A DNA stretch of 64,000 nucleotides from Alphaproteobacteria bacterium (GCA_017466695.1 JAFTTR010000016.1:4015-68014); one strand, 5' to 3'. Shown: positions 31,572 to 64,000, numbered from the stretch's first letter. A program made the numbers and translations. Notes: a model not told the origin generated them from the letters alone.

Positions 31572-31574
31572 AAA

Positions 31575-32549: not shown

Positions 32550-33334
32550 CAGTACAACCACAGCAACCCAAAATTCAAAATAATATTTTATCTCGTATAG
32601 GGGGACGAAACATTTTCGCCATTGCATCTGGTAAAGGAGGCGTTGGGAAAACATGGGTTGCTGTTTCACTGGCACATGCTTTTGCCTTAAAAGGGGAAAA
32701 AGTTCTTTTAATTGATGGAGATTTAGGTCTTTCTAATATCGATATTCAACTTGGCCTAACAGCTATACGTGACATTGGTGTTGTTCTTGCACACAATGCC
32801 CCTTTAAATAGCGCCATTATTCATGATGATACAATTCAATGTGACGTCATTGCCGGACATTCCGGCAGTCAAACACTGGCCGGCATGGAAGAAAACAGAC
32901 TCCAACTTTTATGTGATGATATCAAAATTTTAGCCAATCACTATGATAAAGTCATCATTGACCTTGGAACCGGTATACAAAAATCTGTCACAACGTTAGC
33001 TCAAATTGCCCATGAAATTTTAGTTGTTACAACAGATTCCCCAACATCTCTTGCAGATGCTTATGCATTTATTAAAATTATAACAACTGCTAAAAGTTCT
33101 TCCAATCCCAAGATCTTAATTAATATGGCTAATACAAAAAAAGAAGGTGAACACACATACCATACTTTATTAAAGGCATGCCAAACATTTTTAAATATAA
33201 CCCCTTCATTAGCAGGAATCGTTCATCTAGACTCCATGGCACGTGAAGCTGTTAAAACACAAACCCCTATTTTAAGTATCAATCCTCTTCCTCAAGCAGG
33301 AAAAGATATCCTTGAAATAGCTGGACTCTATTAG
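32546..33334 (+). CDS. flhG: MinD/ParA-family ATPase FlhG (FleN/YlxH)
   Basis: Deviant Walker A IASGKGGVGKT; overlaps flhF stop by 4 nt. Confidence 0.8.
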   Translation: MTVQPQQPKIQNNILSRIGGRNIFAIASGKGGVGKTWVAVSLAHAFALKGEKVLLIDGDLGLSNIDIQLGLTAIRDIGVVLAHNAPLNSAIIHDDTIQCDVIAGHSGSQTLAGMEENRLQLLCDDIKILANHYDKVIIDLGTGIQKSVTTLAQIAHEILVVTTDSPTSLADAYAFIKIITTAKSSSNPKILINMANTKKEGEHTYHTLLKACQTFLNITPSLAGIVHLDSMAREAVKTQTPILSINPLPQAGKDILEIAGLY

Positions 33335-36088: not shown

Positions 36089-36499
36089 ATGAAAAAACAA
36101 GAACAAACTGGTCGTTCAATGATTGAAATTCTTGCCGTTCTAGCCATTATTGGTGTTTTGTCAATCGGTGGCCTTGCAGGATATAGCTTATCTGCCCAGC
36201 GTATCCAAATAAATAACATTATGGACATTGCAACAAAATTCTCAGCAAAAGGCGTTGGTGGAAGAACTTTTAACTCTTTGGCAGCGGCTGGACTTGAAAA
36301 ACCGAATGGGATTGACATGGTTTTAGATGAAGCAGGAAACGTTTGTTTGAAAGATTTTCCTAGAACTACACCAAAAGACCAACGTATGTTCGCAGCTTTT
36401 AAGGCACAAGCGAGTAGTTATGTTGTTCCAACTGATTCTTTCGCACTCCCTGGACATACTTGCAGTCTTGTTTTATCATTTTCAAGAAGAATTGATTAA
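36089..36499 (+). CDS. type IV pilin / pseudopilin-like protein (orphan)
   Basis: MKKQEQTG|RSMIEILAVLAIIGVLSIGG: short basic leader ending in Gly, Glu at +5, hydrophobic alpha1-N helix; two Cys near C-terminus; AAGGAG SD; starts 10 nt after secA stop. Confidence 0.7.
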   Translation: MKKQEQTGRSMIEILAVLAIIGVLSIGGLAGYSLSAQRIQINNIMDIATKFSAKGVGGRTFNSLAAAGLEKPNGIDMVLDEAGNVCLKDFPRTTPKDQRMFAAFKAQASSYVVPTDSFALPGHTCSLVLSFSRRID

Positions 36500-51748: not shown

Positions 51749-53318
51749 TTCCCCCTCTTTTATTTGTTTTTTTCAGTTTTTTTTTACTTTTTACCAAAGG
51801 AGCAAAACGTTTCAATTCCGTAAGTCTATATCCTGTATATATTCCAAGCAACATAATTAAAAAGAGAATAACAACATTTAACTCATTAAAAGCAAATGTA
51901 ATATGTCTAATTGACTCATTTACAATCACAAAATAAATTACAATTGCAGCAAACAAACTGTATAACATTTCTTTAAATGCATTTTTAAAACCTTCTTCCT
52001 CCCAAATAATAGACCCTCTTTCAATAACCCAAGCTATAATAATAATTGGGAAAAAGAGTGCTGAAGAAGCGACTTGCCAATCAAATTGATAACCCAAAAT
52101 AGCAAATATTTGAATAAGTAATATCACAAAAACAACAACAGCAGAAATACGTGGAACAAGCAATAAATTCAAGCGTGATAAACACATTCGAATAAATAAA
52201 CCAACACCAACAACAATACTAAAACAAATCAATCCTTTTAAAAATCCAGTTTCAACCAAAGCCATAGAAATCAACATTGGTGTAAACGTCCCCATTGTTT
52301 TAATGCCTATTACATTTCTTAAAATAACAACGACTAAAATCGCCAAAGGAAAAACCATCAACCATTTGAGTGCATTTTGCTGTTCGAGGGGCAAATTATA
52401 AACAGAATAAGAAAAAAAGTTTTCAATATCTGCATTTTTCGATCTATGTTTTGCCATACTAAATGAAGAATTAAGCGATTTTAAAACAGAATATTTTATT
52501 GAAGAATCCCCTCCTCCGATAACATCTACCAAAGAAGCATTGCCTTTTTGAAATACAATAAAATCTGCAGGCAAACCTGTTTTCCCTGTTTCGATATTAT
52601 AAACATACCATTTTTTTTCATTTAAGTTATAAGCCTCTATCATCACATCAGCTGTAACCGATTTTTTCCCTTCAACTAAATGAACACCTCTAATGACTCT
52701 GGCTGGTATATTTTCAAGCGCCAACAGATCGACAATTTTTTCTGCTTTTTCTTTTAATTTAGTTCTTTTAGGTAAAAAAGACTGAACAAGTTCTGTTGCC
52801 TCCTCATTATTTAAAAGTGCAATAATTTTTTGCGCATTATCCCCTTCTTCTTTTTTTGCAACTTGAAGCAATTCTTTAGCAATCATCATTGTTTCATCAT
52901 CAAACAATGGCTCAACAATTTTTGGTGGATTATTTTCTTTTTTTGCTTTTTTTGCATCAACTGTATCATAAAGCAAAATCCGATAATACACATTTTGTGT
53001 CTTTTTTAAATTTTTCCCAACCAACTTGATTGTTCTATCTTTTTTTTGAACAGTATAATTACCCTTTGCAATTGTATTTTCATCCAAAATTTTAAATGTG
53101 CCATCCACAATGGGTCGAGAAAAAACAATTTCCACATTTTCAGAGACAGGTTTAAATTTTAAGTTTGCTTCAATTGTCCAAACAGGTGTCTTTTTATCAA
53201 TCTCCCATGTAAAATTCAAAAAATGTTGTTTGTAATAAATTCCAAAACCAGCATACAAAAGAGAAAAGATTAATCCTACAAATAAACTCCATCTTACAAT
53301 TGCTAGTTTTTTAAACAT
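51741..53318 (-). CDS. 7TM membrane protein with large N-terminal extracytoplasmic domain (inactive-transglutaminase-fused 7TM family-like)
   Basis: 525 aa; N-terminal anchor, about 280-aa soluble domain, then seven predicted TM helices (res 310-505); overlaps the ATP-grasp gene start by 8 nt. Confidence 0.6.
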   Translation of the reverse strand: MFKKLAIVRWSLFVGLIFSLLYAGFGIYYKQHFLNFTWEIDKKTPVWTIEANLKFKPVSENVEIVFSRPIVDGTFKILDENTIAKGNYTVQKKDRTIKLVGKNLKKTQNVYYRILLYDTVDAKKAKKENNPPKIVEPLFDDETMMIAKELLQVAKKEEGDNAQKIIALLNNEEATELVQSFLPKRTKLKEKAEKIVDLLALENIPARVIRGVHLVEGKKSVTADVMIEAYNLNEKKWYVYNIETGKTGLPADFIVFQKGNASLVDVIGGGDSSIKYSVLKSLNSSFSMAKHRSKNADIENFFSYSVYNLPLEQQNALKWLMVFPLAILVVVILRNVIGIKTMGTFTPMLISMALVETGFLKGLICFSIVVGVGLFIRMCLSRLNLLLVPRISAVVVFVILLIQIFAILGYQFDWQVASSALFFPIIIIAWVIERGSIIWEEEGFKNAFKEMLYSLFAAIVIYFVIVNESIRHITFAFNELNVVILFLIMLLGIYTGYRLTELKRFAPLVKSKKKLKKTNKRGGNV

Positions 53319-53330
53319 GGTATCCTCTTA

Positions 53331-53906
53331 TTAATATAACGTTTTTGAAAGAGCCGTATCAACAATAGCTCTACCTTTTAAAACATTTCGCCCAATTAAA
53401 CCTTGATAATCAAACTTAGAGCGATCAGCTAAAGAAAATTGTGTTGTTATTTTTTCATCTCCCATTTTAATGGTCATCAGAACAACTATTCTTTCTTCCG
53501 ATTCTTTTTGTCTTTTTATAGCCGTTTGGCGATAAACTCGTTTTTCAAAATGGTGTGTCTCCCCATTTTTTTTATTCACAACATCAAAAGAAACCCACTT
53601 AACTCCTTCTCTTTCAAAAAGATTAATATTTTGAGCATCAATAGAAGATGTCGCAGCCCCCGTATCAATTCTAGATAAAATCGCCTTTTTCATTGGTAAA
53701 AAATAAACAGGTTCAACCTCACCAATAATTCCTAATTTATGAGTTTGAGACACCTGTTCTTCTAGAGAGACAGCTGGGACTTTTATTGTTTTAATTGTTT
53801 CAATAACTGTTGGTTTTGTTGGCGTTATTTCTTTTTTTTCAACAGCACAAGATGAGCAAATAGCCAATGACAATACTAAAAAAGAACTTAAAAAATGTTT
53901 TTTCAT
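53331..53906 (-). CDS. retropepsin-like aspartic protease (COG4067 / putative ATP-dependent zinc protease family)
   Basis: Start at MKKHFL (AAAAGGGG SD); signal peptide; catalytic-type RIDTGAATSSID motif. Confidence 0.65.
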   Translation of the reverse strand: MKKHFLSSFLVLSLAICSSCAVEKKEITPTKPTVIETIKTIKVPAVSLEEQVSQTHKLGIIGEVEPVYFLPMKKAILSRIDTGAATSSIDAQNINLFEREGVKWVSFDVVNKKNGETHHFEKRVYRQTAIKRQKESEERIVVLMTIKMGDEKITTQFSLADRSKFDYQGLIGRNVLKGRAIVDTALSKTLY

Positions 53907-54026
53907 TTTTACCCCTTTTATGACATTTTTTTTATATTTTAATAAAAACATACAAAAAGTAAAGCAAAAACTTGCTATTTTTTTTTGAATAAAATATATT
54001 CATCATAAACAAAGGAGACGACTATA

Positions 54027-54395
54027 ATGACAGAGAAAAAAAGTGCCATTAAACATATTATTGACGCCTGTTTTTATTCATATAGTGGAATAAAATCTGC
54101 CTATAAAAGCGAGATTGCATTTCGCCAAGATATTGCTATCTGCACCTTTTTATTTATTTTTGCACTTATTCTTCCTGTTTCTTTTGTTTATAAGCTACTA
54201 ATGATTGTTTCTCTTTTCATCATCTTAATTGCTGAACTCATCAATACGGCTATCGAAACAGTTATTGATAGAATTTCAAGTGAAATTCACCCCCTTTCTA
54301 AAAAAGCAAAAGATATCGGCAGTGCTATTGTATTCTTTGCATTTTTGCAAATGATTTTTGTTTTTCTAAGTTCACTCATCATAGCTATATTTTAA
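54027..54395 (+). CDS. dgkA: diacylglycerol kinase
   Basis: 122 aa, 3 TM; LINTAIETVIDRISSEIHPLSKKAKDIGSAIV aligns to E. coli DgkA ILNSAIEAVVDRIGSEYHELSGRAKDMGSAAV. Confidence 0.92.
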   Translation: MTEKKSAIKHIIDACFYSYSGIKSAYKSEIAFRQDIAICTFLFIFALILPVSFVYKLLMIVSLFIILIAELINTAIETVIDRISSEIHPLSKKAKDIGSAIVFFAFLQMIFVFLSSLIIAIF

Positions 54396-54397
54396 CA

Positions 54398-54751
54398 TTA
54401 TCTACGTCCTTTATGGCCTTTAGGTCTCTTTGAGGATTTATGTTGTTTATAATGATGATTTTTAATCTTTTTATGATGATTATGTGAAGCAACACCTAAA
54501 ATGATACCCCCAACCAAAGCACCAATACCTAATGCAGTTATAGCAGCATCAGAAGCATCTGATGAAGTTTGAATATACTTTTCTTGAACAACAATTTTTT
54601 CTTGAACTGGTTGATTAACAATGACTGTGGTAGCAGGTTGTGGCTCATTCACGTAAATTGTTTTATAATAACCAGCATGAGCTGGTAATCCTGCCATCAT
54701 TGTGATTGCTATCAATAAAGAAAAAGCTATTGGTTTATTCACTTTTAACAT
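54398..54751 (-). CDS. small secreted/membrane protein with glycine-zipper segment and His/Lys-rich tail
   Basis: 117 aa; signal peptide AHA|GYY; ITALGIGALVGGIILGVA glycine zipper; tail HNHHKKIKNHHYKQHKSSKRPKGHKGRR. Confidence 0.5.
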   Translation of the reverse strand: MLKVNKPIAFSLLIAITMMAGLPAHAGYYKTIYVNEPQPATTVIVNQPVQEKIVVQEKYIQTSSDASDAAITALGIGALVGGIILGVASHNHHKKIKNHHYKQHKSSKRPKGHKGRR

Positions 54752-54876
54752 TTTATTTCTCCTTTATGATTTAAAACTCATTATTCCTAACGAAAAGAAA
54801 AATAAAATTGTTCATTTTTTATAGCTTGATATTTATTTTCTATTTATATAACATAAATAAGAAACGAGAACTTAAA

Positions 54877-56049
54877 ATGAAAAAATCACTTTATTTAAAT
54901 AATATTCAATTAAAAGCTGAGCTTGATCGATGCTTAGGATGCTCGAGTAAACCTTGCAAAATAGCTTGTCCTATCAAATGCGATCCTCATTACTTTATAA
55001 AAAAAGCAAAAGAAAATAATTTTAAGGAAGCTGCCACTTCTATATATCAACAAAATCCATTGGGGAAAATTTGTGGACTTGTGTGCCCTGAACATTTATG
55101 TATGAAAGCTTGCATTCGTGGGAAAATTGACTTTCCTATTAATATTCCAAAAGTTCAAGCAACAATCATTGAAAAAGCAAACATCAAAGACCCAATTAAA
55201 AGCACAAACAAAATCCATAGCCAGGCCCATATTGCAATCATTGGCGCAGGTCCTGCCGGCATTTCAGCAGCAATTACTTTTGCTCAACACGGAATCTCAA
55301 GCACTTTATTTGAAGCCGAACCCAACATTGGTGGTGCAATTAATCTCATTCCCGAAGATAGACTACCTAAACAAGTTATTAAAGAAGAATTTTCTTATTT
55401 TTCAAATGCAGAACTTATCCATATTTTAACACACAAAAAAATAACCAACCCCCAAGCTCTTTTGAAAAAAGGTTTTTCTCATATTATTATCACAACAGGA
55501 GAAGATAAACCTCATTTATTAAATATTATGGGCGAAGAATTTTGTATACCATATCAAGATTATCTTAAATCTCCTAAAACATATTCTCATTTTAATAAGA
55601 TTGCAATTATTGGAGGGGGGAATGTGGCAGCCGACTGTGCACTTACAGCTAAAAAATTAGGAACAAAAGAAATCGATATTTTCATTCGAAGACGTTCTTG
55701 CGATATGCGATTATCTCCTCATCAACAGCTAGAACTTATTCAAGAAGAAATAAGTATCAATCCTCTTTGTTCCCCTGTCGAAATTTTACAAGATAAAAAT
55801 AAATTTTCACTTAGAGTTATTCTAAATAAAGTAACTGAATCAACTTTTAAATCCAACCCGAATGAAACTCATTTATATACAAACTTTGATGCTGTTATTC
55901 GAGCGACTGGCGCAAAATCAAGCATTCAAAAATATGACGAAAATATTTTTTATGCAGGAGACTGCAAAAATGGTTCTTCAAGCGTTGTTGAAGCATTAAG
56001 TGATGGCAAACAAGTTGCTCTTAAAATTATAAAATCTCTTTTAAAATAA
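54877..56049 (+). CDS. FAD/NAD(P)-dependent oxidoreductase, glutamate synthase small-subunit-like (GltD/PreT family) with N-terminal Fe-S cysteine clusters
   Basis: Start at MKKSLY; Cys clusters CLGCSSKPCKIACP and CGLVCPEHLCMKAC; two Rossmann dinucleotide motifs IAIIGAGPAG and IAIIGGGNVA. Confidence 0.75.
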   Translation: MKKSLYLNNIQLKAELDRCLGCSSKPCKIACPIKCDPHYFIKKAKENNFKEAATSIYQQNPLGKICGLVCPEHLCMKACIRGKIDFPINIPKVQATIIEKANIKDPIKSTNKIHSQAHIAIIGAGPAGISAAITFAQHGISSTLFEAEPNIGGAINLIPEDRLPKQVIKEEFSYFSNAELIHILTHKKITNPQALLKKGFSHIIITTGEDKPHLLNIMGEEFCIPYQDYLKSPKTYSHFNKIAIIGGGNVAADCALTAKKLGTKEIDIFIRRRSCDMRLSPHQQLELIQEEISINPLCSPVEILQDKNKFSLRVILNKVTESTFKSNPNETHLYTNFDAVIRATGAKSSIQKYDENIFYAGDCKNGSSSVVEALSDGKQVALKIIKSLLK

Positions 56050-56137
56050 AAAAAATTCCCTATTTGATAACAAGTAAAAAAAACTTGATGATTTTTTACT
56101 TTTTTGTTATATTCACATTAATTTAAAGGATTATATT

Positions 56138-56602
56138 ATGAAATTAAATACGGATGTCACAGGGACTAATTTTAATAATCATGCTTTTCATTCTGAGAAA
56201 GATGCAATTTCTCTTGAAAAAAAAGCTCAAGATCTCATTCATTCCTTAACAAAATCATTTTTACAAGAAGCTAATCTTTCACTTTTACATATGCAACAAA
56301 TATTAAATGATACCTCTTTTTTAAAAGAAAGTGAAAAAACAAGGGTTATTCAATCTATTTTTTTTCAAGCAGCTCATGATTTAAAAGGCCAAGGAACAAC
56401 GTATGGATACCCACTTGTTACAAAAATTGCATCCCATATCTGCTCTAAAATAAAAAAACAAAAAATTTATTCCAATGAAGATATTTTTTCATTCAAAAAA
56501 GATGTATCAAATATGATTGAAGTACTTCAAATGCAACCTAATCAAAAAAATTTAAAATTAGAAACCCACATTTTAAAACAGCTGGAGTGTGATAATGAGT
56601 AA
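56138..56602 (+). CDS. Hpt (histidine phosphotransfer) domain protein
   Basis: 154 aa; Hpt signature AAHDLKGQGTTYGYPLV. Confidence 0.65.
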   Translation: MKLNTDVTGTNFNNHAFHSEKDAISLEKKAQDLIHSLTKSFLQEANLSLLHMQQILNDTSFLKESEKTRVIQSIFFQAAHDLKGQGTTYGYPLVTKIASHICSKIKKQKIYSNEDIFSFKKDVSNMIEVLQMQPNQKNLKLETHILKQLECDNE

Positions 56603-57275
56603 TATTTTACCTCACATATTGGTCATTGATGATGATACTCGTTTAAGACGATTATTAAAAAAATACTTAAGCGAAAATAATTTTGAAGTCAGTGAAGCAG
56701 CCAATGCGCAAGAGGCAAAGTCTCTTTTAAACTTGTTCACATTTTCTATTCTTATTATGGACGTCATGATGCCTGGTCAAAATGGCCAAGAATTAACAAA
56801 AGAACTGCGTCAAAATCAGATTAATATTCCCATTTTAATGCTCACAGCAATGGGGGATATTGACAATCGTATTTCAGGTCTTGAGGCTGGCGCAGACGAT
56901 TATTTACCTAAACCATTCGAACCCAAAGAATTACTCCTTAGAATAAATAATATTTTAAAAAGGCAAATCCAGCAAGAAATCCGAACTGAAATTTTATTTG
57001 GCGATTGCAGTTACGATTCAAAAACAGGAAAACTGACAAAAAATAATGCACCTGTTTTATTAACCGGTGCAGAACAAGATTTACTTAAAATCTTAGTTTC
57101 AAAAATTGGAAATCCTATTTCAAGAGAAGAAATTGCCCAATCTCTTGAAACAGATAATATCAGAGCAATTGACGTTCAAATTACAAGATTAAGACGAAAA
57201 ATTGAAACAGATATCAAAAAACCGATTTGTATTCAAACACTGCGTGGGCAAGGTTATATTTTGGTGCCAAGATGA
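56595..57275 (+). CDS. OmpR-family response regulator
   Basis: Receiver domain (DDD ... D57-equivalent IMDVMMPG, T/K residues) and C-terminal winged helix (ITRLRRKIE ... IQTLRGQGY). Confidence 0.9.
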   Translation: MSNILPHILVIDDDTRLRRLLKKYLSENNFEVSEAANAQEAKSLLNLFTFSILIMDVMMPGQNGQELTKELRQNQINIPILMLTAMGDIDNRISGLEAGADDYLPKPFEPKELLLRINNILKRQIQQEIRTEILFGDCSYDSKTGKLTKNNAPVLLTGAEQDLLKILVSKIGNPISREEIAQSLETDNIRAIDVQITRLRRKIETDIKKPICIQTLRGQGYILVPR

Positions 57276-58678
57276 GCAAAAAAACACCCTTTATTATTTT
57301 AAAACGTTTTTTAATTTGGTTAATGCAAGCCTTTGATGGCGTGCGTATCCGTATTTTTCCACAAAGTCTTTTTTATCGTTTTATTTTAATTATACTGCTC
57401 CCTCTTATTTTTTTGCAAACGGTTATGTTTATCTTCTTCTATGACAGGCATTGGCAAACGGTAAGTAGAAGATTGGCTGCTGACGTTGCCGGAGAACTGA
57501 CACTCATCTCAGATTTTATTTCTTCTGGCGCAGATGAAAATAGTATCCATAATTTTCTCGCCAAAGCCTCTCATAATTTATCCATAAAATTATCATTTAA
57601 AAAACAAGAGCTCATTTTAAATCAACGTCTTAATTATGAAGATTCCTCTGTTACACACCTTACAAATGAATTAGCAGATATTCATTATCCTGTTTATATG
57701 ACACCCATTACAAATAAAAGAATCCTTGTTTCCATTCAATTACCCTCCGGTGTTTTAAACGCCATTATTCCACAAAAACGCTTTTTCAGCTCAACAGTTC
57801 TTGTCTTTCTTGGATGGACAATTGTTTCATCTATTTTATTATTTTTAATTGCATTCTTGTTTATGAAAAATCAGGTTCGATCTATTGAAAAATTAGCAAG
57901 AGCTTCTGAATTATTTGGAATTGGACAAGATATACCTTTCAAACCTGCTGGTGCGACAGAAGTTAAACGTGCAGGTCTAGCCTTCCTTCTTATGAGAAAC
58001 AGAATTTTAAAATATTTAAGTGAACGAACAACAATGCTCGCTGGGGTATCTCATGATTTAAGAACACCTCTTACAAGAATGAAACTCCAATTGTCTATGA
58101 TGAATAAAGATGAAACAACCCGTGATCTTGCATCAGACGTAGAAGAAATGGAGAAAATGCTTACCGGCTATCTAACATTTGCACGTGGGGAAGGAAAGGA
58201 ATTGCCTCAACGCTTTCAATTGGATGAGCTTATCAAACAGTTAGTTGAAAAACAACGCAAAACAAATCAAGCCATTTCTCTTCATATTGAAAATGATATT
58301 GAAATATCCGGACGAGTGAATGAACTTACTCGTGCAATAAATAATATTTTAACCAATGCAGCAAGATACGCTTCACAAACAGCTGTTGTTCTTGGCATTC
58401 GAAATGAAACTGCAACAATTACCATTGATGATAACGGCCCAGGTATTCCTCTTGAAAAAAGACAAGAAGTATTTAAAGCATTCTATAGGCTCGAAGCATC
58501 GAGGAATCAGGCTACAGGTGGGATTGGACTTGGGCTAACCATCACCCGAGACATCATCCTTTCTCATGGTGGCGACATTTCTTTATCCAATAGCCCCCTC
58601 GGTGGTTTGCGTGTTGTCATTTCATTGCCACTCTCTGGTTTTGAAACACCTCAAAGTGAAAAAATAATGCAAATTTGA
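57272..58678 (+). CDS. sensor histidine kinase (EnvZ-like: 2 TM, HAMP, HisKA, HATPase)
   Basis: ATG overlaps the RR stop (ATGA). H-box LAGVSHDLRTPL, N-box ILTNAARYA, G1 DDNGPGIP, G2 GGIGLGL. Confidence 0.9.
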   Translation: MSKKTPFIILKRFLIWLMQAFDGVRIRIFPQSLFYRFILIILLPLIFLQTVMFIFFYDRHWQTVSRRLAADVAGELTLISDFISSGADENSIHNFLAKASHNLSIKLSFKKQELILNQRLNYEDSSVTHLTNELADIHYPVYMTPITNKRILVSIQLPSGVLNAIIPQKRFFSSTVLVFLGWTIVSSILLFLIAFLFMKNQVRSIEKLARASELFGIGQDIPFKPAGATEVKRAGLAFLLMRNRILKYLSERTTMLAGVSHDLRTPLTRMKLQLSMMNKDETTRDLASDVEEMEKMLTGYLTFARGEGKELPQRFQLDELIKQLVEKQRKTNQAISLHIENDIEISGRVNELTRAINNILTNAARYASQTAVVLGIRNETATITIDDNGPGIPLEKRQEVFKAFYRLEASRNQATGGIGLGLTITRDIILSHGGDISLSNSPLGGLRVVISLPLSGFETPQSEKIMQI

Positions 58679-58861
58679 TTTTTCAAATTTATTATCCCTT
58701 AAAAAAAAATAATTTTTTGTTGTATGTGCGCATTTTTTTGCTTGCAACTTCATTTTCAAAGTTGTAGTATGAATTATATTCTATAACAAGAAGGGGATGA
58801 ATACGTCTTACAAATGTTGTTCGAATATATATTTTTTATATATTTTTCAGAGGGATAAAAA

Positions 58862-60004
58862 ATGGGACAAAAAAATTTTCTTTTACATTTATGCGTTTGC
58901 AGTCTGTTAAGTTATGCTCCATTTTTTGCCTTCAATGTTCAAGCATATAATAACTTAGAGGTTGCTCAAGGGGATGGAGAGCCTGTCGAAGTATCTGTCG
59001 AAGAACAATTACAAGCAGCCCAAAAACTTGCTGATGAAGAAAATGAAAACACAGCAACAATTACAGCAGAAGGTGATTTTTTACTCCCAACATATTTATT
59101 AAAAACCACTGAAGATACATCAAGTAAAATTGAAGAGATACCTACTGATGAACCTCTTTTTGATGAGCCAACTGAGAAAAAAGAACCCTCAGTAAAAAAA
59201 ATTACTGCTGTTAAAAAGAAAACACAAACAGACTTACCTGTTGTAATGATTAAACAAACAGAGCTTATCCCTGTGAATGAGCAAATGGAAGTTGAGAGAA
59301 AATTAACAGGATCAACAACACAAACTCAAAAGATTTACGATCAAGCAACTCAAAAGAAAAATTCTTTTTCTGTAAATAAAAAAGAAAATAACTTGAGCGT
59401 CTCCAAGAAAAAACAATCAAATCAATCTTTAGCATCTTCAACAGATGACGAAATCAGTAGTATTTTAAAAGGAACTGATTCCTTAAAAACACAAGAAATC
59501 GAAACAGGGAAGAAAAAGCCTCTTCTTTTGCCATTAAAAGGAACAAAAAAACCAGTAAAAGCAGAAAGTGTAGATGAATTTATCCCTAATCCAAGATTGA
59601 AAACATATTCTTCCGTCTATGCAGATAAGGTTCTTGAAGCAGCACAAACAAATCAAGAATTGCCTTTAATTATGCCAATGGATTTAAAAGTTTCATTTTA
59701 TCCAAACGCTGCTGATTTTTCGGGTCAAACAATCAAATGGTTAAAGGTTTTTTCACTCAAAGCTTTGCAAGATCCACGTTATGTTATTGAAGTTCGTCTA
59801 AGTAAAGAAGATCTTTTATTACAACAAAAACGCTTGTTTGTTATTCAAAAGATTTTAGCAAATTCAGGTTTATCAAGTCATCAATTAGTTGTTGATTATG
59901 TAAAAAGGCCAAAAGATAGTCTTATTTTAAGAATGGTTAAGAAAGAGCCTTCTGTTAACATTCGTTCACGTACAAAAAAAGAAAAAAGTGTTATTAACTG
60001 GTAA
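58862..60004 (+). CDS. secreted hypothetical protein, low-complexity Lys/Thr/Gln-rich middle, possible OmpA/MotB-like C-terminal region
   Basis: 380 aa; signal peptide; C-terminal RLFVIQKILANSGLSSHQLVVDYV loosely resembles the LSxxRA-type peptidoglycan-binding motif. Confidence 0.45.
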   Translation: MGQKNFLLHLCVCSLLSYAPFFAFNVQAYNNLEVAQGDGEPVEVSVEEQLQAAQKLADEENENTATITAEGDFLLPTYLLKTTEDTSSKIEEIPTDEPLFDEPTEKKEPSVKKITAVKKKTQTDLPVVMIKQTELIPVNEQMEVERKLTGSTTQTQKIYDQATQKKNSFSVNKKENNLSVSKKKQSNQSLASSTDDEISSILKGTDSLKTQEIETGKKKPLLLPLKGTKKPVKAESVDEFIPNPRLKTYSSVYADKVLEAAQTNQELPLIMPMDLKVSFYPNAADFSGQTIKWLKVFSLKALQDPRYVIEVRLSKEDLLLQQKRLFVIQKILANSGLSSHQLVVDYVKRPKDSLILRMVKKEPSVNIRSRTKKEKSVINW

Positions 60005-60020
60005 CAATAAAGGAGTTTAG

Positions 60021-60833
60021 ATGAGACAAGATTATTTAAAACAAACCACAATAGCAGGACTTTTGTTCTGTGGTTTAAGTTTTATGAGTGGATGTGCTTC
60101 TCTCTCACAAGGTGATGAAGTTATTGCACAAGAAGAACCTGTAACATATACTGCTCCTGCGCAAGGTGTTGTTGATCCAAACATTTGCTCTCCAGAAAAT
60201 CCAGCAGCCTGCATCGTTTCTTATGAAGATCCAAGTTTAACACTGGGCCAAAGTTATACACCTTATGAAGGATTGGCTGTTTCAACAAACGCATCTTATC
60301 TTGTTGATATGGCCCCAGTGTCCATTTCCGTTCCCATGATTGAACAAGGCTTATCAGTTAAAGAGAAAATGGCTCAAAAAGAATTAGAACAACAACAAAA
60401 AGATTTAGCATTAAAACCTGTTTCAAATGCTGATATTATTTGTAATGGAGAAGACTGCCAAGATCAATTATTTAAAACCGAGATTGAAAAAGAAGTTCAA
60501 ACAACCATTACAGAAGAAACAACATTAAGAGCTCCAACATTGAAAGATAAACTCGCTTATGGCGAGGAAGTTCATGATTGGGAAGCAAAAGCTGGTGACA
60601 CAATGCGTACTCTTTTAAGACAATGGGGGGAAGCCTCTGGTTGGACTGTTGTTTGGAAACTAGATAGAGACTATCATTTAGAGGCAGGCGTTGTCTTTAG
60701 AGGGAATTTTACTGAAGTTGCAGCCGCATTTATCCGTTCTTTTGCAAGAGCAACTCCAGCTCCAATTGGTACATTCTATAAAGGAAACAGAGTTCTAGTT
60801 ATAAATGCACAGGAGAATGAAAATGCAGATTAA
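60021..60833 (+). CDS. lipoprotein with TcpQ/PilL-like C-terminal domain (type IVb pilus biogenesis)
   Basis: Lipobox FMSGC|AS. C-terminus GDTMRTLLRQWGEASGWTVVWKLDRDYHLEAGVVFRGNFTEVAAAFIRSFARATPAPIGTFYKGNRVLVIN fits my recollection of the TcpQ-family pattern (tLR..L..WA..aGW.v.W..dy.l ... f.G.f..A ... fy.gNrVLvv). Confidence 0.5.
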   Translation: MRQDYLKQTTIAGLLFCGLSFMSGCASLSQGDEVIAQEEPVTYTAPAQGVVDPNICSPENPAACIVSYEDPSLTLGQSYTPYEGLAVSTNASYLVDMAPVSISVPMIEQGLSVKEKMAQKELEQQQKDLALKPVSNADIICNGEDCQDQLFKTEIEKEVQTTITEETTLRAPTLKDKLAYGEEVHDWEAKAGDTMRTLLRQWGEASGWTVVWKLDRDYHLEAGVVFRGNFTEVAAAFIRSFARATPAPIGTFYKGNRVLVINAQENENAD

Positions 60834-62481
60834 TTTTATTAAATCACTTATGATCGCAACCGTTCTTGCAACGACGTTGTCTTTGTCTGCTTGTAATAAA
60901 TATGTCGAAAAAACAGATGCCAAAATCGAAACGATTATTGAACAAGCTGATGAGCATCTGCAGCAAGCAACTATTCCTGATTTACCTGAGACAACCGACA
61001 CTGTTCGCACAAAAGATGATATTTGGCTAGGGAACAGTAGTGTTAAAATTTCACAAGGGGATAATCTACCTCCAGAAATGGAAGAAGAAGATGCTCTTAC
61101 GCTTACAATTGCTCAAGAAGCTACATTGCCATTCATTGCAAATGAAATTGCAGAAGCGACAGGTTTGCACGTTCGCTTAGATAGTTTAAAAGCATCAGAT
61201 TCACTTCCCACCGAAACAGTTCCTGTTGACTACACAGGAACTCTTAGTGGTTTATTAGATTACGTATCAAATAGATATGGTGTTTGGTGGCGTTATAAAA
61301 ATAGAACCATCAATTTCTATACAAAAGAAACACGTATTTTCAATATCTATGCGCTTCCTGTTGAAACAAATATTTCAAACTCATTATCTGGCGCAACAAT
61401 GGGGAGCTCAGAGTCTAGTTCATCGAACGCTTCCTCATCTTTAACATCTTCAGCAAATCTTGCTTTGTGGGACAATATCGAACAAAGTTTAAAACAAATT
61501 GTTGGAGAAAATGGGGAACTTTCATTTAGCCGCGTTGCTGGAACTGTTACTATTACAGCAAGTCCTTTTGTTATTAAAGAAGCAGCTGAATGGATTAACG
61601 ACTTCAACCAAAAACTTGCTCGTCAAGTTGCCATTTCTGTGAAAGTCTTACAAGTTAATGTTTCAAATCAAGACAATTATGGTTTTGATCTTGGATTGGT
61701 CTTTAAAAACTCTGACATTCTTGGCACATTCTCAAGTGCTTATTCTTTAGGCACTGCAGATGCAGCAGGTACATTGTCAATGATGTTGTTAAAACCAGAT
61801 TCAAAATGGACAAATTCAAAAGCAATCATTCAAGCATTTTCTGTTTTAGGGAAAACAGCCTTAGTTACATCAGCAAGTGCAACAACGTTAAATAATAAAG
61901 TTGCACCAATTCAAATCACCACTCAAGAAAACTACGTAAAAGAAACAAACGTTTCAACTTCTGGTAGTGGAACCGATAGAAGTGTTGATGTTGATATGGA
62001 AACAGATACATTAAACTATGGCTTTATGATGGAAGTTTTGCCACGTATTTTAAATCATGGAAATTTAATTTTGATGTTCTCATTAAATTTAACTGATTTA
62101 GTTTCCTTGACAAACTTTAGTTCATCTGGAATTGGATCAGATGCAAATAAAGAAAAAGACGATAATTCAACTAATTCAGAAGATGAAGATGAGGATGAAA
62201 ACTCTTCTGGAGAAGATACAGCTACTGTTGTTCAATTACCAAAAATTCAAACTCGTGGATTCATTCAAGAAATTGCAATGCGTTCAGGTTCAACTCTTGT
62301 TTTAAGTGGTTTTGAGCAAGTTGGTAATTCAACAGCAACAAGTGGTATTGGTAAAGCAAAAATGGGCCTTTTAGGAGGTTCAGCAATCAGCCAAAATACA
62401 AGAGACGTCATTGTCATTTTGTTAACACCAGAAGTTTTAGAATCACCCCTTTCACCTGAAGCAAGAATGAGGGATTTTTAA
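60823..62481 (+). CDS. outer-membrane lipoprotein secretin (PilN/TcpC-like, type IVb pilus)
   Basis: Start at MQINFIK (AGGAGAA SD). Lipobox LSLSAC. Acidic Ser/Asp/Glu linker. C-terminal secretin domain TRGFIQEIAMRSGSTLVLSGFEQ ... KMGLLGGSAISQNTRDVIVILLTPEVL. Confidence 0.7.
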   Translation: MQINFIKSLMIATVLATTLSLSACNKYVEKTDAKIETIIEQADEHLQQATIPDLPETTDTVRTKDDIWLGNSSVKISQGDNLPPEMEEEDALTLTIAQEATLPFIANEIAEATGLHVRLDSLKASDSLPTETVPVDYTGTLSGLLDYVSNRYGVWWRYKNRTINFYTKETRIFNIYALPVETNISNSLSGATMGSSESSSSNASSSLTSSANLALWDNIEQSLKQIVGENGELSFSRVAGTVTITASPFVIKEAAEWINDFNQKLARQVAISVKVLQVNVSNQDNYGFDLGLVFKNSDILGTFSSAYSLGTADAAGTLSMMLLKPDSKWTNSKAIIQAFSVLGKTALVTSASATTLNNKVAPIQITTQENYVKETNVSTSGSGTDRSVDVDMETDTLNYGFMMEVLPRILNHGNLILMFSLNLTDLVSLTNFSSSGIGSDANKEKDDNSTNSEDEDEDENSSGEDTATVVQLPKIQTRGFIQEIAMRSGSTLVLSGFEQVGNSTATSGIGKAKMGLLGGSAISQNTRDVIVILLTPEVLESPLSPEARMRDF

Positions 62482-62493
62482 GGAGTTAAAATA

Positions 62494-63852
62494 ATGGTAG
62501 AGGAATATGGTGAACAACCCATTCAGTCAAATCAATTAAGTCCCTCAGTAGAGGATACCTCTCAAGGAACAGTTACCATTCGCAAAGTTAAATATGCGGT
62601 GGGTTTGATTTGGCAGCCTCTTCAAGATCCTGACAATCCTACGCCAGAAATTCGTGAGGCAATGGAAACGGATACAGATTCGGATTTATACTGTCTTCGC
62701 ATTACATCAACCCCCCAATATGGTCTTGCAAAAACATCGTTAGGACATCGTTCTGGTGAATTATCTTTGGCGGCAATGGTTGCGTCTGCTTTATCTGATA
62801 AGACATCTATTTGTGGTGTCTTTAAAGTAGAGGAAGGATGGTACTTCTTAGCAGTCAGAAATGATTTGATTCTTTCTGAAAATGACGTATTATTTAAAAC
62901 GGAACAAGAAGCTGAAGATGCTTTTTATTCTATGATGGCTGTTCCTGATTGGGATTTAAAAATTGTCCCTGCTGAATGGAAAATCGAAGGAACAGTTTCT
63001 AGAACCATTGAATCCATTGTTCGTGATGCTCGTACAAAGGTTCGTCTCGAAGAATTAGGGGCCAAAAAGAGAAACCAAGTCCTTTTATTTATCGGTATTA
63101 TTCTTGTTGTTGCCTTTGTTTTAATCTTTTATTCAATGTTAACTGTCTTTACACCGGTTATACAAACAGAAGAAAAGATTGAACCAATACCTATTCCAGA
63201 AATTATCAGACCGGTCGAACCAACCCCAGAAAAACCAAAACCTTGGGAAAAAATACCTGAAACACGTGCATTTTTAAACAAGTGCTGGAATAATGCTTAC
63301 CAATTAAAAGCATTGAATATTCCTGGGTGGAGTTTAGGAATTATTTCTTGTTCAAATACGGCTCTTGTAACATCTTGGAGCCGGGGGGATACCCGTATTT
63401 GGAAAAATCAACCTCGTATTGCGTGGATTAAATCAGCACTTAATGAATATAAATTAACTAATGTCAATTTAAAAATTAATAGTGATGGAGCTTCTGCTAA
63501 CGGACAAGTTGTTTTTTATGATATTCCACTTGTTGCTTCTGTTCCAATTTACACAGAACAACAACTGTGGGAAGAATTAACAGATATCAAGCAAGCAGCT
63601 CAACTCAATTTGACATTCCAAAGACATACGGTTTTAGATCCACCAAACAATCCTGATGGTTCAAAACCTGATCATCAACAAGAGTATGTATTTTTTGTTT
63701 TTTCAATTACGTCACCATTTACACCTTTTGAATGGATGACATTCTTTGAAAAATTTCCAGGATTAGAGTTAACAAGAATTGAGTTTAATCCATCATCAGA
63801 TACAAAAGATCAAAACAAGTGGAAGTACAATGGGAGAATCTATGCAAAATAA
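62494..63852 (+). CDS. PilO-like bitopic membrane protein of type IVb pilus cluster
   Basis: 452 aa; single central TM LLFIGIILVVAFVLIFYSMLTVF; position after the secretin gene as in pilLNOP clusters. Confidence 0.4.
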   Translation: MVEEYGEQPIQSNQLSPSVEDTSQGTVTIRKVKYAVGLIWQPLQDPDNPTPEIREAMETDTDSDLYCLRITSTPQYGLAKTSLGHRSGELSLAAMVASALSDKTSICGVFKVEEGWYFLAVRNDLILSENDVLFKTEQEAEDAFYSMMAVPDWDLKIVPAEWKIEGTVSRTIESIVRDARTKVRLEELGAKKRNQVLLFIGIILVVAFVLIFYSMLTVFTPVIQTEEKIEPIPIPEIIRPVEPTPEKPKPWEKIPETRAFLNKCWNNAYQLKALNIPGWSLGIISCSNTALVTSWSRGDTRIWKNQPRIAWIKSALNEYKLTNVNLKINSDGASANGQVVFYDIPLVASVPIYTEQQLWEELTDIKQAAQLNLTFQRHTVLDPPNNPDGSKPDHQQEYVFFVFSITSPFTPFEWMTFFEKFPGLELTRIEFNPSSDTKDQNKWKYNGRIYAK

Positions 63853-64000
63853 CACATTATCATTATTAGCCATATTAGGTTTATCAGCAGCATTTGTCAT
63901 TCAACCTGCTTTTGCACAGGAAGCAACGGATCAATCTGTTGAAAAGGCAGCTGAATCTCAATCCATTGAACAAAAAAAAGAGGAAGCATCAGCCCCACAA
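63842..64000 (+). CDS. PilP-like secreted protein, 5' fragment (continues beyond window)
   Basis: ATG overlaps the previous gene by 11 nt; signal peptide MQNNTLSLLAILGLSAAFVIQPAFA|QEA. Confidence 0.4.
   Translation, partial: MQNNTLSLLAILGLSAAFVIQPAFAQEATDQSVEKAAESQSIEQKKEEASAPQ

What the first reader, a model, noticed from the sequence alone, without database searches (positions are those of the whole stretch)
58862..64000. Type IVb (R64/PAPI-1/Tcp-like) pilus biogenesis cluster: TcpQ/PilL-like lipoprotein - lipoprotein secretin - PilO-like - PilP-like, truncated by the window edge
Five co-directional, overlapping genes are present. (1) A secreted Lys/Thr-rich protein whose C-terminus weakly resembles an OmpA-like peptidoglycan-binding motif. 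(2) A lipoprotein whose C-terminal 70 residues match the TcpQ/PilL pattern (GDTMRTLLRQWGEASGWTVVWKLDRDY ... FYKGNRVLVIN). (3) A 553-aa lipoprotein with acidic linker and C-terminal secretin domain, the same size and organisation as R64 PilN / TcpC. (4) A 452-aa bitopic protein (PilO-like). (5) A signal-peptide protein continuing beyond 64000 (PilP-like). This is the gene order of conjugative thin-pilus / ICE type IVb pilus loci (pilL-N-O-P then ATPase, platform, pilin, peptidase expected downstream). No integrase or relaxase is visible, so I cannot say whether it is on a mobile element. A type IVb pilus in this kind of genome could serve adhesion to host cells or DNA transfer.
Basis: partly seen in the sequence, partly recalled or inferred. 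Interest (0 to 1): 0.65.

Follow-up and report, generated by a model that had tools for sequence, protein, structure and literature searches.

The report
Chromosomal type IVb pilus machine
The flagged genes are a real type IVb pilus assembly operon, but it is a stable chromosomal feature of a whole group of uncultured gut Alphaproteobacteria, not a mobile-element pilus, and it carries a previously unnamed cell-wall-anchor-like first gene.

Summary
Window 58862-64000 holds five co-directional, tightly packed genes:
- g1: secreted, no family hit.
- A TcpQ-domain lipoprotein (PF10671, 1.8e-17).
- A lipoprotein secretin (BfpB, E 1.3e-50; TIGR02520 at 272 bits, cutoff 288).
- PilO2 (PF06864, 1.9e-28).
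- The start of a PilP-like protein.

A contig identical over the 11.5 kb it shares with the window supplies the rest: PilP (362 aa), a BfpD-like ATPase (918 aa) and a platform protein. Housekeeping genes follow.

No pilin, peptidase, PilV, lytic transglycosylase or second ATPase lies next to the cluster. A pilin with a class III signal peptide (G|RSMIE) sits 23 kb upstream at 36089-36499. Its relatives lie directly after the platform gene in several related genomes and match the PilS and Bundlin families.

The seven-gene module g1-L-N-O-P-Q-R is colinear in about 80 species-level gut alphaproteobacterial MAGs, with PilO identity of 35-93% and variable flanks. It is therefore inherited vertically and is not on an ICE.

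Verdict: a new variant of a known kind. The machine identity is secure. Its function, probably adhesion or aggregation, is inferred. Interest is moderate.

The parts
58862..60004 (+). g1: the first gene of the operon. It is a secreted 380-aa protein with conserved N-terminal motifs (AQGDGDP; ATITAEGDFLVPTYLLP), a low-complexity Lys/Thr/Glu linker, a KKPLLLPL motif and a C-terminal domain of about 135 aa with a predicted OmpA/MotB/Pal-like fold. It is inferred to be a peptidoglycan-anchoring accessory of the pilus machine.
   Evidence: There is no Pfam or NCBIfam hit. It has 155 homologues, all unnamed. Only 371 hits turn up among 1.84 billion representative proteins, and the conserved domain is always C-terminal. 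It is colinear with pilL-R in every locus that is long enough, and also in a distant member, P0345. In the AF2 model, aa 245-380 have pLDDT 85-93. The top Foldseek PDB hits are all OmpA-like domains: Pal, MotB-C, OprF-C, PorE and the Dot/Icm OMC.
60021..60833 (+). PilL/TcpQ/BfpG-like lipoprotein (270 aa), the partner of the secretin. Its N0-like TcpQ domain spans aa 186-263.
   Evidence: PF10671 TcpQ, 1.8e-17. Chain R of PDB 9u5s (named only 'Lipoprotein' in the search output; taken to be BfpG because 9u5s_A is BfpB and PMC12531336 describes the BfpB-BfpG complex), E 1.8e-10. The lipobox is visible in the sequence. TIGR03748 conj_PilL is not hit.
60823..62481 (+). PilN/BfpB-type lipoprotein secretin (552 aa as called; the longest ORF starts at 60805). 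It forms the outer-membrane channel.
   Evidence: PF00263, 9e-10. TIGR02520, 271.6 bits against a cutoff of 287.65. BfpB (9u5s_A), E 1.3e-50 over aa 97-437. It is 25-28% identical to plasmid PilN-family secretins.
62494..63852 (+). PilO2/BfpC-type bitopic inner-membrane protein (452 aa). It has a cytoplasmic actin-like N-domain, one TM segment and a periplasmic C-domain.
   Evidence: PF06864, 1.9e-28 over aa 35-451. BfpC N-domain (3vhj), 1.8e-7; PilO2Bp (4byz), 0.0066. The fold and role are taken from PMC3984277. NCBI names the identical protein 'type 4b pilus protein PilO2'.
63842..64000 (+). The 5' end of the PilP-like gene. On the matching contig the full protein is 362 aa: a signal peptide, a coiled-coil middle and a C-terminal PilP domain. 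Beyond the window come the ATPase (918 aa) and the platform protein (376 aa), at L001 12483-15239 and 15255-16385.
   Evidence: L001 is identical to window 52494-64000. TIGR03021, 31.2 bits against a cutoff of 34.65, and 16 of 19 orthologues hit it. ATPase: PF00437, 7e-69, and BfpD (8dze), 2.3e-88. Platform: PF00482, 1.2e-24.
36089..36499 (+). Candidate major pilin (136 aa), immediately after secA. The leader is MKKQEQTG, and the mature N-terminus is RSMIEILAVLAIIGVLS..., with Glu at +5 and Arg at +1. Two Cys residues lie in the C-terminal half.
   Evidence: It was found by motif scan. The gene is called on the same contig. Pilins with the same N-terminus lie directly after pilR in L038, L065, L084 and L092. 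Of 22 family members, 5 hit PF08805 PilS and 3 hit PF05307 Bundlin. The window copy itself has no domain hit, and its model has no Foldseek match.
56138..58678 (+). A weakly Hpt-like protein (154 aa), an OmpR-type response regulator (56595-57275) and an EnvZ-type histidine kinase (57272-58678), ending 183 nt upstream of g1. This is a possible regulator of the operon, by inference only.
   Evidence: NCBIfam OmpR, 210 bits; EnvZ, 197 bits, both below the equivalog cutoffs. The Hpt hit is weak (PF01627, E 0.019). The trio lies within 10 kb of the module in about 27 of the related loci, once downstream and inverted (L040).

Best explanation
This is the assembly operon of a type IVb pilus in the chromosome of an uncultured, low-GC, flagellated gut alphaproteobacterium.

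Shown by sequence:
- Seven co-transcribed-looking genes encode g1, a TcpQ/BfpG-like lipoprotein, a BfpB/PilN-type lipoprotein secretin, a PilO2/BfpC bitopic protein, a PilP-like periplasmic protein, a BfpD-like assembly ATPase and a GspF/PilC-type platform.
- The ATPase has a Walker A motif and a CxxC...CxxC tetracysteine.

Inferred from what is known of Bfp, Tcp and R64 systems:
- The ATPase drives the platform to extract pilin subunits from the inner membrane and polymerise them.
- The pilin is the G|RSMIE protein at 36089-36499. It would be processed by a prepilin peptidase encoded elsewhere.
- PilO2 and PilP link the motor to the outer-membrane secretin.
- The secretin is stabilised by a ring of the TcpQ-like partner, as in the 17:17 BfpB-BfpG complex.
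- g1, through its OmpA/MotB-like C-terminal domain, ties the apparatus to peptidoglycan.

The most likely function is adhesion, auto-aggregation or colonisation in the animal gut. No retraction ATPase accompanies the operon, so any retraction would have to be ATPase-independent.

The module is inherited vertically across this clade and is not carried on a mobile element.
For: Family and structure matches for every core gene.

Downstream genes come from a contig identical over the shared 11.5 kb.

The seven-gene module is colinear in all of about 80 species-level genomes at 35-93% PilO identity. Its flanks vary, and its 3' end is always at pilR.

Housekeeping neighbours include gyrA, secA, recG, dtd, a murA-like gene and comM. 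There is no GC break.

Pilins with the same invariant N-terminus lie immediately after pilR in L038, L065, L084 and L092, and they hit PilS and Bundlin.

The g1 fold is predicted with high confidence and matches only OmpA-like domains.

Tandem pilin paralogues and PilV-like or large pilin-like proteins in relatives fit an adhesive, surface-exposed, fast-evolving filament.
Against: - No prepilin peptidase was found in the 84 kb available for this genome, or within 10 kb of the module in any relative. Both a motif scan and tblastn were used.
- The window's own pilin has no pilin-domain Pfam hit, and its model has no Foldseek match.
- PilN and PilP score just under NCBIfam's curated cutoffs.
- g1 does not match the OmpA Pfam family by sequence, and its peptidoglycan-binding residues were not verified.
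- No expression or piliation data exist, and the adhesion role is an analogy.
- The promoter and terminator scans were no better than shuffled sequence.
Confidence: 0.85

Rival explanations
1. It is a conjugative thin pilus, the R64/PAPI-1 model. On this reading the type IVb pilus is an accessory of a DNA-transfer type IV secretion system and stabilises mating pairs, possibly on an integrated element.
For: A TrbC/VirB2 pilin gene lies divergently 155-750 nt upstream of g1 in 48 of 65 related loci. VirB3 and VirB4 follow it in the 18 most divergent loci and in L092/L093. The PilP and PilS affinities point to the R64-type branch. A PilV-like protein is present in L080.
Against: - In the window's own subclade (L001-L014) the VirB2 gene is absent.
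- No VirB4, relaxase, integrase or flanking tRNA appears in the 84 kb read for this genome.
- The flanks are housekeeping genes and GC is uniform.
- The module is present in every species sampled, which argues for vertical inheritance.
- conj_PilL TIGR03748 is not hit.
Confidence: 0.08
2. It is a DNA-uptake (competence) pilus, or a type II-like protein secretion device built from type IVb parts, and is not mainly an adhesin.
For: A comM/yifB-like gene lies 2.7 kb downstream in the closest relatives. No retraction ATPase or PilV is linked to the module. Type IVb pili such as TCP and CFA/III are known to export soluble proteins (PMC9565799, PMC6048534, abstracts). g1 itself is a secreted protein encoded in the operon.
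Against: - The comM linkage is limited to the nearest relatives, and flanks vary elsewhere.
- g1's OmpA-like fold, and its membrane-anchored long forms (630-800 aa) in distant relatives, suit a periplasmic structural role better than an exported effector.
- No other competence genes (comEA, comEC, dprA) were seen in the sequence read.
- Multiple fast-evolving pilin paralogues fit surface exposure.
Confidence: 0.1
3. It is a decaying remnant: a pilus operon that has lost its pilin, peptidase and accessory genes and no longer functions.
For: Pilin, peptidase, PilV, PilM, lytic transglycosylase and retraction ATPase are all missing from the operon.
Against: All seven ORFs are intact here and in about 80 species, down to 35% identity, with many invariant residues. 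A matching pilin gene is present in the window. Type IVb models already treat the peptidase as a possible 'loner' gene (PMC6668835). Known type IVb systems such as PAPI-1 and Burkholderia Tfp7 also borrow a peptidase encoded elsewhere (PMC3984277).
Confidence: 0.03

Closest known systems
Bundle-forming pilus (Bfp) of enteropathogenic E. coli: BfpG-BfpB-BfpC-BfpU-BfpD-BfpE core
   Same: The order of the six core genes is the same. Bfp gives the best solved-structure matches for four proteins: BfpB 1.3e-50, chain R of 9u5s (taken to be BfpG) 1.8e-10, BfpC 1.8e-7 and BfpD 2.3e-88. The secretin is a lipoprotein with a TcpQ-like partner. Some clade pilins hit Bundlin.
   Different: Sequence identity is only about 24-28%. 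The pilin gene does not lead the operon. There is no BfpF retraction ATPase, BfpP peptidase, BfpH transglycosylase or BfpI/J/K/L. This system has the extra g1 gene, a PilP-type protein instead of BfpU, and is chromosomal, not on an EAF-type plasmid.
R64 thin pilus / PAPI-1 / Burkholderia Tfp7 'R64 variant' (pilL-N-O2-P-Q-R-S-[T,U]-V-M)
   Same: It shares the PilO2 family (PF06864), the PilN-family secretin, the PilP family, the L-N-O-P-Q-R order and PilS-type pilins in relatives. As in PAPI-1 and Tfp7, no peptidase is in the operon (PMC3984277). Tfp7 is likewise chromosomal and conserved within its genus.
   Different: - No PilV, PilM or PilT is linked in this genome.
- conj_PilL is not hit.
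- The cluster is not on a plasmid or ICE.
- The pilin is unlinked, 23 kb away.
- PilP is more than twice as long, with a coiled coil.
- The ATPase has an N-terminal extension of about 480 aa containing 14-aa acidic repeats.
- g1 is absent from R64-type operons. This was not tested exhaustively: in the Bosea comparator, the gene-by-gene comparison was by annotation only.
Bosea megaplasmid type IVb cluster (NZ_CP016463, alphaproteobacterial)
   Same: This is the best plasmid-database match for PilO (23.5% identity over 92%). The best match for PilN (27%) is the sister Bosea sp. ANAM02 megaplasmid NZ_AP022849. The order TcpQ-secretin-PilO2-hypothetical-ATPase-platform is the same.
   Different: The Bosea cluster continues with a second ATPase, a hypothetical gene and PilV, and it sits near a replication gene on a plasmid. 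The window's operon stops at the platform gene and is chromosomal.
OmpA-like peptidoglycan-binding domains attached to envelope machines (MotB, Pal, T9SS PorE, Dot/Icm outer-membrane-cap subunit)
   Same: The g1 C-terminal domain has the same predicted fold (Foldseek probability 1.00, TM up to 0.64 on 105-120 residues). In distant relatives g1 has an N-terminal membrane anchor, a MotB-like arrangement.
   Different: There is no sequence-level match to the OmpA family. A profile search does not bleed into OmpA proteins. Conservation of the peptidoglycan-binding residues was not established.

Membership tests
Type IVb pilus (TFF superfamily model of Denise et al. 2019, PMC6668835: mandatory ATPase, platform, secretin, pilin, prepilin peptidase) | PilB/BfpD-type assembly ATPase | tested here: met
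   PF00437, 7e-69. BfpD (8dze), 2.3e-88, much better than GspE or PilB at about 1e-47. Walker A and a tetracysteine motif are visible in the sequence. The gene lies just beyond the window, on the contig identical over the shared 11.5 kb.
Type IVb pilus (TFF superfamily model) | GspF/PilC-type inner-membrane platform | tested here: met
   PF00482, 1.2e-24, two stretches, 376 aa.
Type IVb pilus (TFF superfamily model) | Secretin | tested here: met
   PF00263, 38.8 bits against a cutoff of 27.5. BfpB, 1.3e-50.
Type IVb pilus (TFF superfamily model) | Pilin with a class III signal peptide | tested here: met
   Window 36089-36499 has the leader MKKQEQTG followed by RSMIE and a hydrophobic helix with Glu at +5. 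The N_methyl hit is only weak (E 0.027). The link to this machine rests on relatives in which the same pilin type follows pilR.
Type IVb pilus (TFF superfamily model) | Prepilin peptidase (A24) | not testable with these tools
   None was found by GxGD[VI]K motif or by tblastn with an E. coli A24 query, either in the window plus 20 kb of extensions or in about 90 loci. The rest of the genome could not be read. The published model treats this gene as a possible loner.
R64 / PAPI-1 thin-pilus variant | PilO2 (PF06864) | tested here: met
   99.9 bits, full-length match.
R64 / PAPI-1 thin-pilus variant | PilN-family lipoprotein secretin (TIGR02520) | tested here: inconclusive
   271.6 bits, E 1e-80, but below the curated cutoff of 287.65. 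A lipobox is present.
R64 / PAPI-1 thin-pilus variant | PilP (TIGR03021) | tested here: inconclusive
   31.2 bits against a cutoff of 34.65 for this protein. Of 19 orthologues, 16 hit the model, best E 3.5e-9.
R64 / PAPI-1 thin-pilus variant | PilL of conjugative/ICE type (TIGR03748) | tested here: not met
   No hit at E <= 1. Only the generic TcpQ domain is present.
R64 / PAPI-1 thin-pilus variant | PilS-type pilin, PilV tip adhesin and PilM in or next to the operon | tested here: not met
   The operon ends at pilR and housekeeping genes follow. PilS hits occur only in relatives' pilins. A PilV-like protein occurs only in L080. No protein of the operon hit a PilM model in the Pfam scans.
R64 / PAPI-1 thin-pilus variant | Carried on a conjugative plasmid or ICE with a T4SS, relaxase and integrase | tested here: not met
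   Housekeeping genes lie on both sides over 84 kb. The only tRNA is 32 kb away. There is no VirB4 hit and no GC break. Distant relatives do have virB2/3/4 next to the module.
Bfp/Tcp-type type IVb operons | Pilin as the first gene; in-operon peptidase; retraction ATPase (Bfp) | tested here: not met
   None of these is present in the operon, in the window or in any related locus.
OmpA-like peptidoglycan-binding domain (for g1) | The beta-alpha-beta-alpha-beta-beta OmpA_C-like fold | tested here: met
   The AF2 C-terminal domain has pLDDT 85-93. All top Foldseek PDB hits are OmpA-like domains, with E down to 4e-6. This is a prediction, not a solved structure.
OmpA-like peptidoglycan-binding domain (for g1) | Sequence membership (Pfam OmpA) and conserved DAP-binding Asp/Arg | tested here: not met
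   There is no OmpA-family hit at E <= 1, and the profile search does not reach OmpA proteins. Residue-level conservation was not examined.

The most novel reading that the evidence does not exclude
The module may be a distinct, clade-wide branch of type IVb machines with its own peptidoglycan-anchoring subunit (g1) and an Arg+1 pilin. Ancestrally it would have been wired, through a shared divergent promoter region, to a VirB-type type IV secretion pilin gene. On this reading, uncultured gut Alphaproteobacteria use a coupled pilus and secretion contact apparatus to attach to, and act on, host, protist or bacterial cells. The window's lineage would have kept the pilus after losing the linkage.
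Probability: 0.15. Interest if true: 0.6.

Novelty: new variant of a known kind. Interest (0 to 1): 0.38.

Why it matters
Type IVb pili are known mainly from enteric pathogens and conjugative elements of Gamma- and Betaproteobacteria. Here the same core machine is a conserved chromosomal trait of a large, uncultured group of animal-gut Alphaproteobacteria, found in rumen, hindgut and human samples. That makes it a strong candidate for their colonisation factor and a handle for studying how they attach.

Three features extend the known range of type IVb architectures:
- A conserved OmpA-fold first gene.
- The invariant Arg at pilin position +1.
- The recurrent neighbouring VirB2 gene in relatives.

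All three are testable. None overturns current understanding.

Tried and rejected
- Promoter and terminator scan of the operon: counts were no different from shuffled sequence, so it was not used.
- Rfam scan of the window: only the tRNA was found.
- Strict PROSITE-like pilin regex: it found nothing, because the pilins have Arg at +1. A relaxed pattern was needed.
- Foldseek of the pilin model against PDB: no significant match.
- PilP profile against PDB sequences: nothing.
- Weak tblastn hit of VirB2 in the window at 20544-20735 (E 0.001): it lies inside a minus-strand ORF and was judged spurious.
- Literature searches found no paper describing this system: RF32/CAG-239/Rs-D84 plus pili; gut Alphaproteobacteria MAGs plus type IV pilus; and the Hepatincolaceae paper.
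- ICE or plasmid origin for this genome: rejected on flanks, GC and clade-wide synteny.
- 'Remnant operon': rejected on conservation.

Full report
**What is in the sequence.**
Window 58862-64000 carries five + strand ORFs separated by +16, -11, +12 and -11 nt. GC is 0.33-0.39 across them, the same as the surroundings.

- g1 (58862-60004, 380 aa) has a signal peptide and no Pfam or NCBIfam hit.
- g2 (60021-60833, 270 aa) has a lipobox. Its last 80 residues are a TcpQ domain (PF10671, 63.6 bits).
- g3 (called start 60823, end 62481) is a lipoprotein secretin. It scores 38.8 bits on PF00263 and 271.6 bits on TIGR02520 'PilN family', with E 1e-80, just below the curated 287.65.
- g4 (62494-63852, 452 aa) matches PF06864 PAP_PilO end to end (99.9 bits).
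- g5 starts at 63842 and leaves the window.

The exception is conj_PilL TIGR03748, which does not hit g2.

**Completing the truncated cluster.**
An exact-protein look-up of g4 returned a 109-kb metagenome scaffold (L001). It is identical to the window over the 11,507 bases they share. The window corresponds to scaffold positions 12184-76183.

Downstream genes on this scaffold:
- g5 is 362 aa: a signal peptide, a coiled-coil middle and a C-terminal PilP domain. It scores 31.2 bits on TIGR03021 against a cutoff of 34.65, and 16 of 19 orthologues hit the same model.
- Next is a 918-aa T2SSE ATPase. Its core (aa ~390-905) matches BfpD at 2.3e-88, against about 1e-47 for GspE or PilB.
- The ATPase N-terminal ~480 residues include a 42-nt repeat present 11.9 times, which encodes acidic, Pro-rich 14-mers.
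- Last is a 376-aa T2SSF platform.

After a 177-nt gap come dtd, a small ORF, a murA-like gene, a lipoprotein, comM/yifB and an ankyrin-repeat gene.

The predicted pilin, peptidase and PilV are not there.

**The pilin.**
A relaxed class III signal-peptide scan found one candidate in the window, at 36089-36499, immediately after secA. Its leader is MKKQEQTG and the mature N-terminus is RSMIEILAVLAIIGVLSIGG.... The gene is called on the same scaffold among housekeeping genes.

Proteins with the same invariant G|RSM[IV]E N-terminus lie in several related genomes:
- Directly after the platform gene in L038, L065, L084 (four tandem copies) and L092 (two copies).
- Just upstream of the module in L040 (a pilin) and L061 (a 1078-aa pilin-like protein).

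Of 22 family members, 5 hit PF08805 (PilS) and 3 hit PF05307 (Bundlin). The window copy is short and has no domain hit. Its AF2 model shows a 46-residue N-terminal helix and a small head, but it has no Foldseek match. Assigning this pilin to the machine is therefore an inference from synteny in relatives.

Arg at +1 of the mature pilin is invariant in the family. It falls outside the residues I recall for known pilins. That point rests on my own knowledge, not on a test.

**Who carries it, and is it mobile?**
NCBI names the identical g4 'type 4b pilus protein PilO2 [Alphaproteobacteria bacterium]'. A genome-collection scan with a PilO alignment returned 80 species-representative MAGs. Nearly all are labelled as uncultured Alphaproteobacteria, with a few labelled otherwise (Lactobacillales, Limosilactobacillus, Pseudomonadota). 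Most isolate names point to animal guts: rumen, yak, sheep, deer, rabbit, buffalo and human, including 'Acetobacter sp. CAG:977'.

tblastn with the window's proteins shows g1-L-N-O-P-Q-R colinear in every locus that is long enough. PilO identity runs from 93% down to 35%. The flanks change, and the module always ends at pilR.

The 84 kb readable for this genome contains gyrA, ssb, smpB, der, PBP1, fliG/flhF/flhG, secA, recG and similar genes. There is no integrase, relaxase or VirB4, and only one tRNA, 32 kb away. The cluster is therefore a vertically inherited chromosomal trait, not an ICE or plasmid cargo.

From memory, these MAGs correspond to the GTDB gut orders RF32 and Rs-D84. I could not verify this with the tools.

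**g1.**
The g1 family has 155 close homologues, all unnamed. A profile search of 1.84 billion representative proteins found only 371 hits. The conserved ~125-residue domain is always at the C-terminus, and the search did not spill into the OmpA family. A distant member (P0345, 572 aa) is again the first gene of a TcpQ-secretin-PilO-x-ATPase-platform-pilin cluster.

The AF2 model gives pLDDT 85-93 for aa ~245-380. Every top Foldseek PDB hit is an OmpA-like peptidoglycan-binding domain: Pal, MotB-C, OprF-C, PorE and a Dot/Icm outer-membrane-cap subunit. E values reach 4e-6 and TM up to 0.64.

In the most divergent genomes g1 is 630-800 aa. In the one long form inspected (L072, 800 aa) it has an N-terminal membrane anchor, a MotB-like layout.

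Peptidoglycan binding itself remains inferred.

**How it most likely works.**
The best solved-structure relatives are all Bfp components: BfpB, a chain of the same entry taken to be BfpG, the BfpC N-domain and BfpD.

- By analogy with the 17:17 BfpB-BfpG complex (PMC12531336), the lipoprotein secretin forms the outer-membrane channel, ringed by the TcpQ-like partner.
- By analogy with PilO2 and BfpC (PMC3984277), g4 provides a cytoplasmic actin-like domain, a TM helix and a periplasmic domain that connect the motor to the periplasmic parts.
- PilP bridges towards the secretin.
- The ATPase and the platform polymerise processed pilin.
- g1 would fix the assembly to the cell wall.

No second ATPase, lytic transglycosylase or A24 peptidase is near the module in any genome. 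The peptidase must be encoded elsewhere, as in PAPI-1 and Burkholderia Tfp7 and as the published type IVb model allows.

An OmpR/EnvZ-type two-component pair with a weakly Hpt-like gene ends 183 nt upstream. It accompanies the module in about 27 loci. A regulatory role is plausible but untested, and the promoter scan was uninformative.

Adhesion or aggregation in the gut is the most likely function. Three observations support it: pilin sequences evolve fast (only 18 detectable homologues), pilin paralogues occur in tandem, and relatives carry PilV-like or very large pilin-like proteins.

**Comparison and novelty.**
Identity to characterised systems is low. PilO is 24% identical to Bosea pilO2 and to bfpC, and PilN is 25-28% identical to plasmid PilN proteins. 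The six-gene core order is the one shared by Bfp-like and R64-like operons.

The differences are:
- The conserved g1.
- The long PilP and the extended ATPase.
- The unlinked Arg+1 pilin.
- The absence of PilV, PilM, PilT, PilU and a retraction ATPase from the operon.
- The chromosomal, clade-wide distribution.

No paper on this system was found. I class it as a new variant of a known kind, of moderate interest.

**Side observation.**
A TrbC/VirB2 gene lies divergently upstream of g1 in 48 of 65 relatives, followed by VirB3 and VirB4 in the most divergent ones. It is absent in the window's subclade. This keeps a link to a type IV secretion system open for the family as a whole. It is the basis of the more novel reading given separately.

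Noticed in passing
L015 5652-6002 (-), L072 1561-4739 (-), L092 1-3570 (-); absent from the window: A TrbC/VirB2-type T4SS pilin gene (PF04956, 46 bits) lies divergently 155-750 nt upstream of g1 in 48 of 65 related loci. VirB3 and VirB4 follow it in the 18 most divergent loci. The window's subclade (L001-L014) has lost this neighbour and has the two-component system directly upstream instead.
   Followed up: partly
L001 12825-13323 (about 1.3 kb beyond the window end): The pilus ATPase has an N-terminal extension of about 480 aa containing a 42-nt tandem repeat present 11.9 times. The repeat encodes acidic, PPLP-containing 14-mers (EDEEYEDDLPPLPS). The near-identical MAG L002 is only 92% identical over the part of the ATPase it covers, against 99-100% elsewhere. 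This would fit repeat-number variation, which was not checked.
   Followed up: partly
window 36089-36499 and alignment A4: The whole pilin family has an invariant G|RSM[IV]E processing site, so the mature pilin would begin with Arg. The usual first residue is Phe, Met, Leu or another hydrophobic residue. No matching peptidase was found in the sequence available.
   Followed up: partly
L084 5917-8206; L080 16151-19222; L061 2842-6075; L028 1095-3272 (-): Relatives carry four tandem pilin paralogues after pilR (L084), and very large (726-1078 aa) proteins with the same pilin N-terminus. The L080 protein resembles Bosea PilV (E 1.4e-10).
   Followed up: partly
window 30201-33334: Flagellar genes (a FliG-like gene, flhF and flhG/minD-like) lie just upstream of secA and the pilin gene, so the organism is probably motile.
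   Followed up: no
L001 20651-21359 (-), beyond the window: An ankyrin-repeat protein is encoded 4 kb downstream of the operon. Such proteins are common in host-associated bacteria.
   Followed up: no
window 54398-54751 (-): A small 117-aa protein with a signal peptide, a Gly-rich TM segment and a His/Lys-rich tail (HNHHKKIKNHHYKQHKSSKRPKGHKGRR). It has no confident family hit.
   Followed up: no
window 62150-62290 (within g3, aa ~455-495): The secretin domain carries an acidic, low-complexity insertion of about 30-40 residues (…NKEKDDNSTNSEDEDEDENSSGEDT…), so the Pfam match spans 197 residues for a 169-position model. Its conservation across the clade was not examined.
   Followed up: no
L050 15496-21266, L053-L057, L045, L054, L069 downstream of pilR: In one subclade, phage-like genes lie immediately downstream of pilR on the opposite strand: a terminase-like protein of 463 aa, a portal-like protein of 641 aa and a cell-wall hydrolase-like protein of 134 aa. 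This suggests a prophage or gene-transfer-agent-like insertion next to the module. The annotation is by eye only.
   Followed up: no
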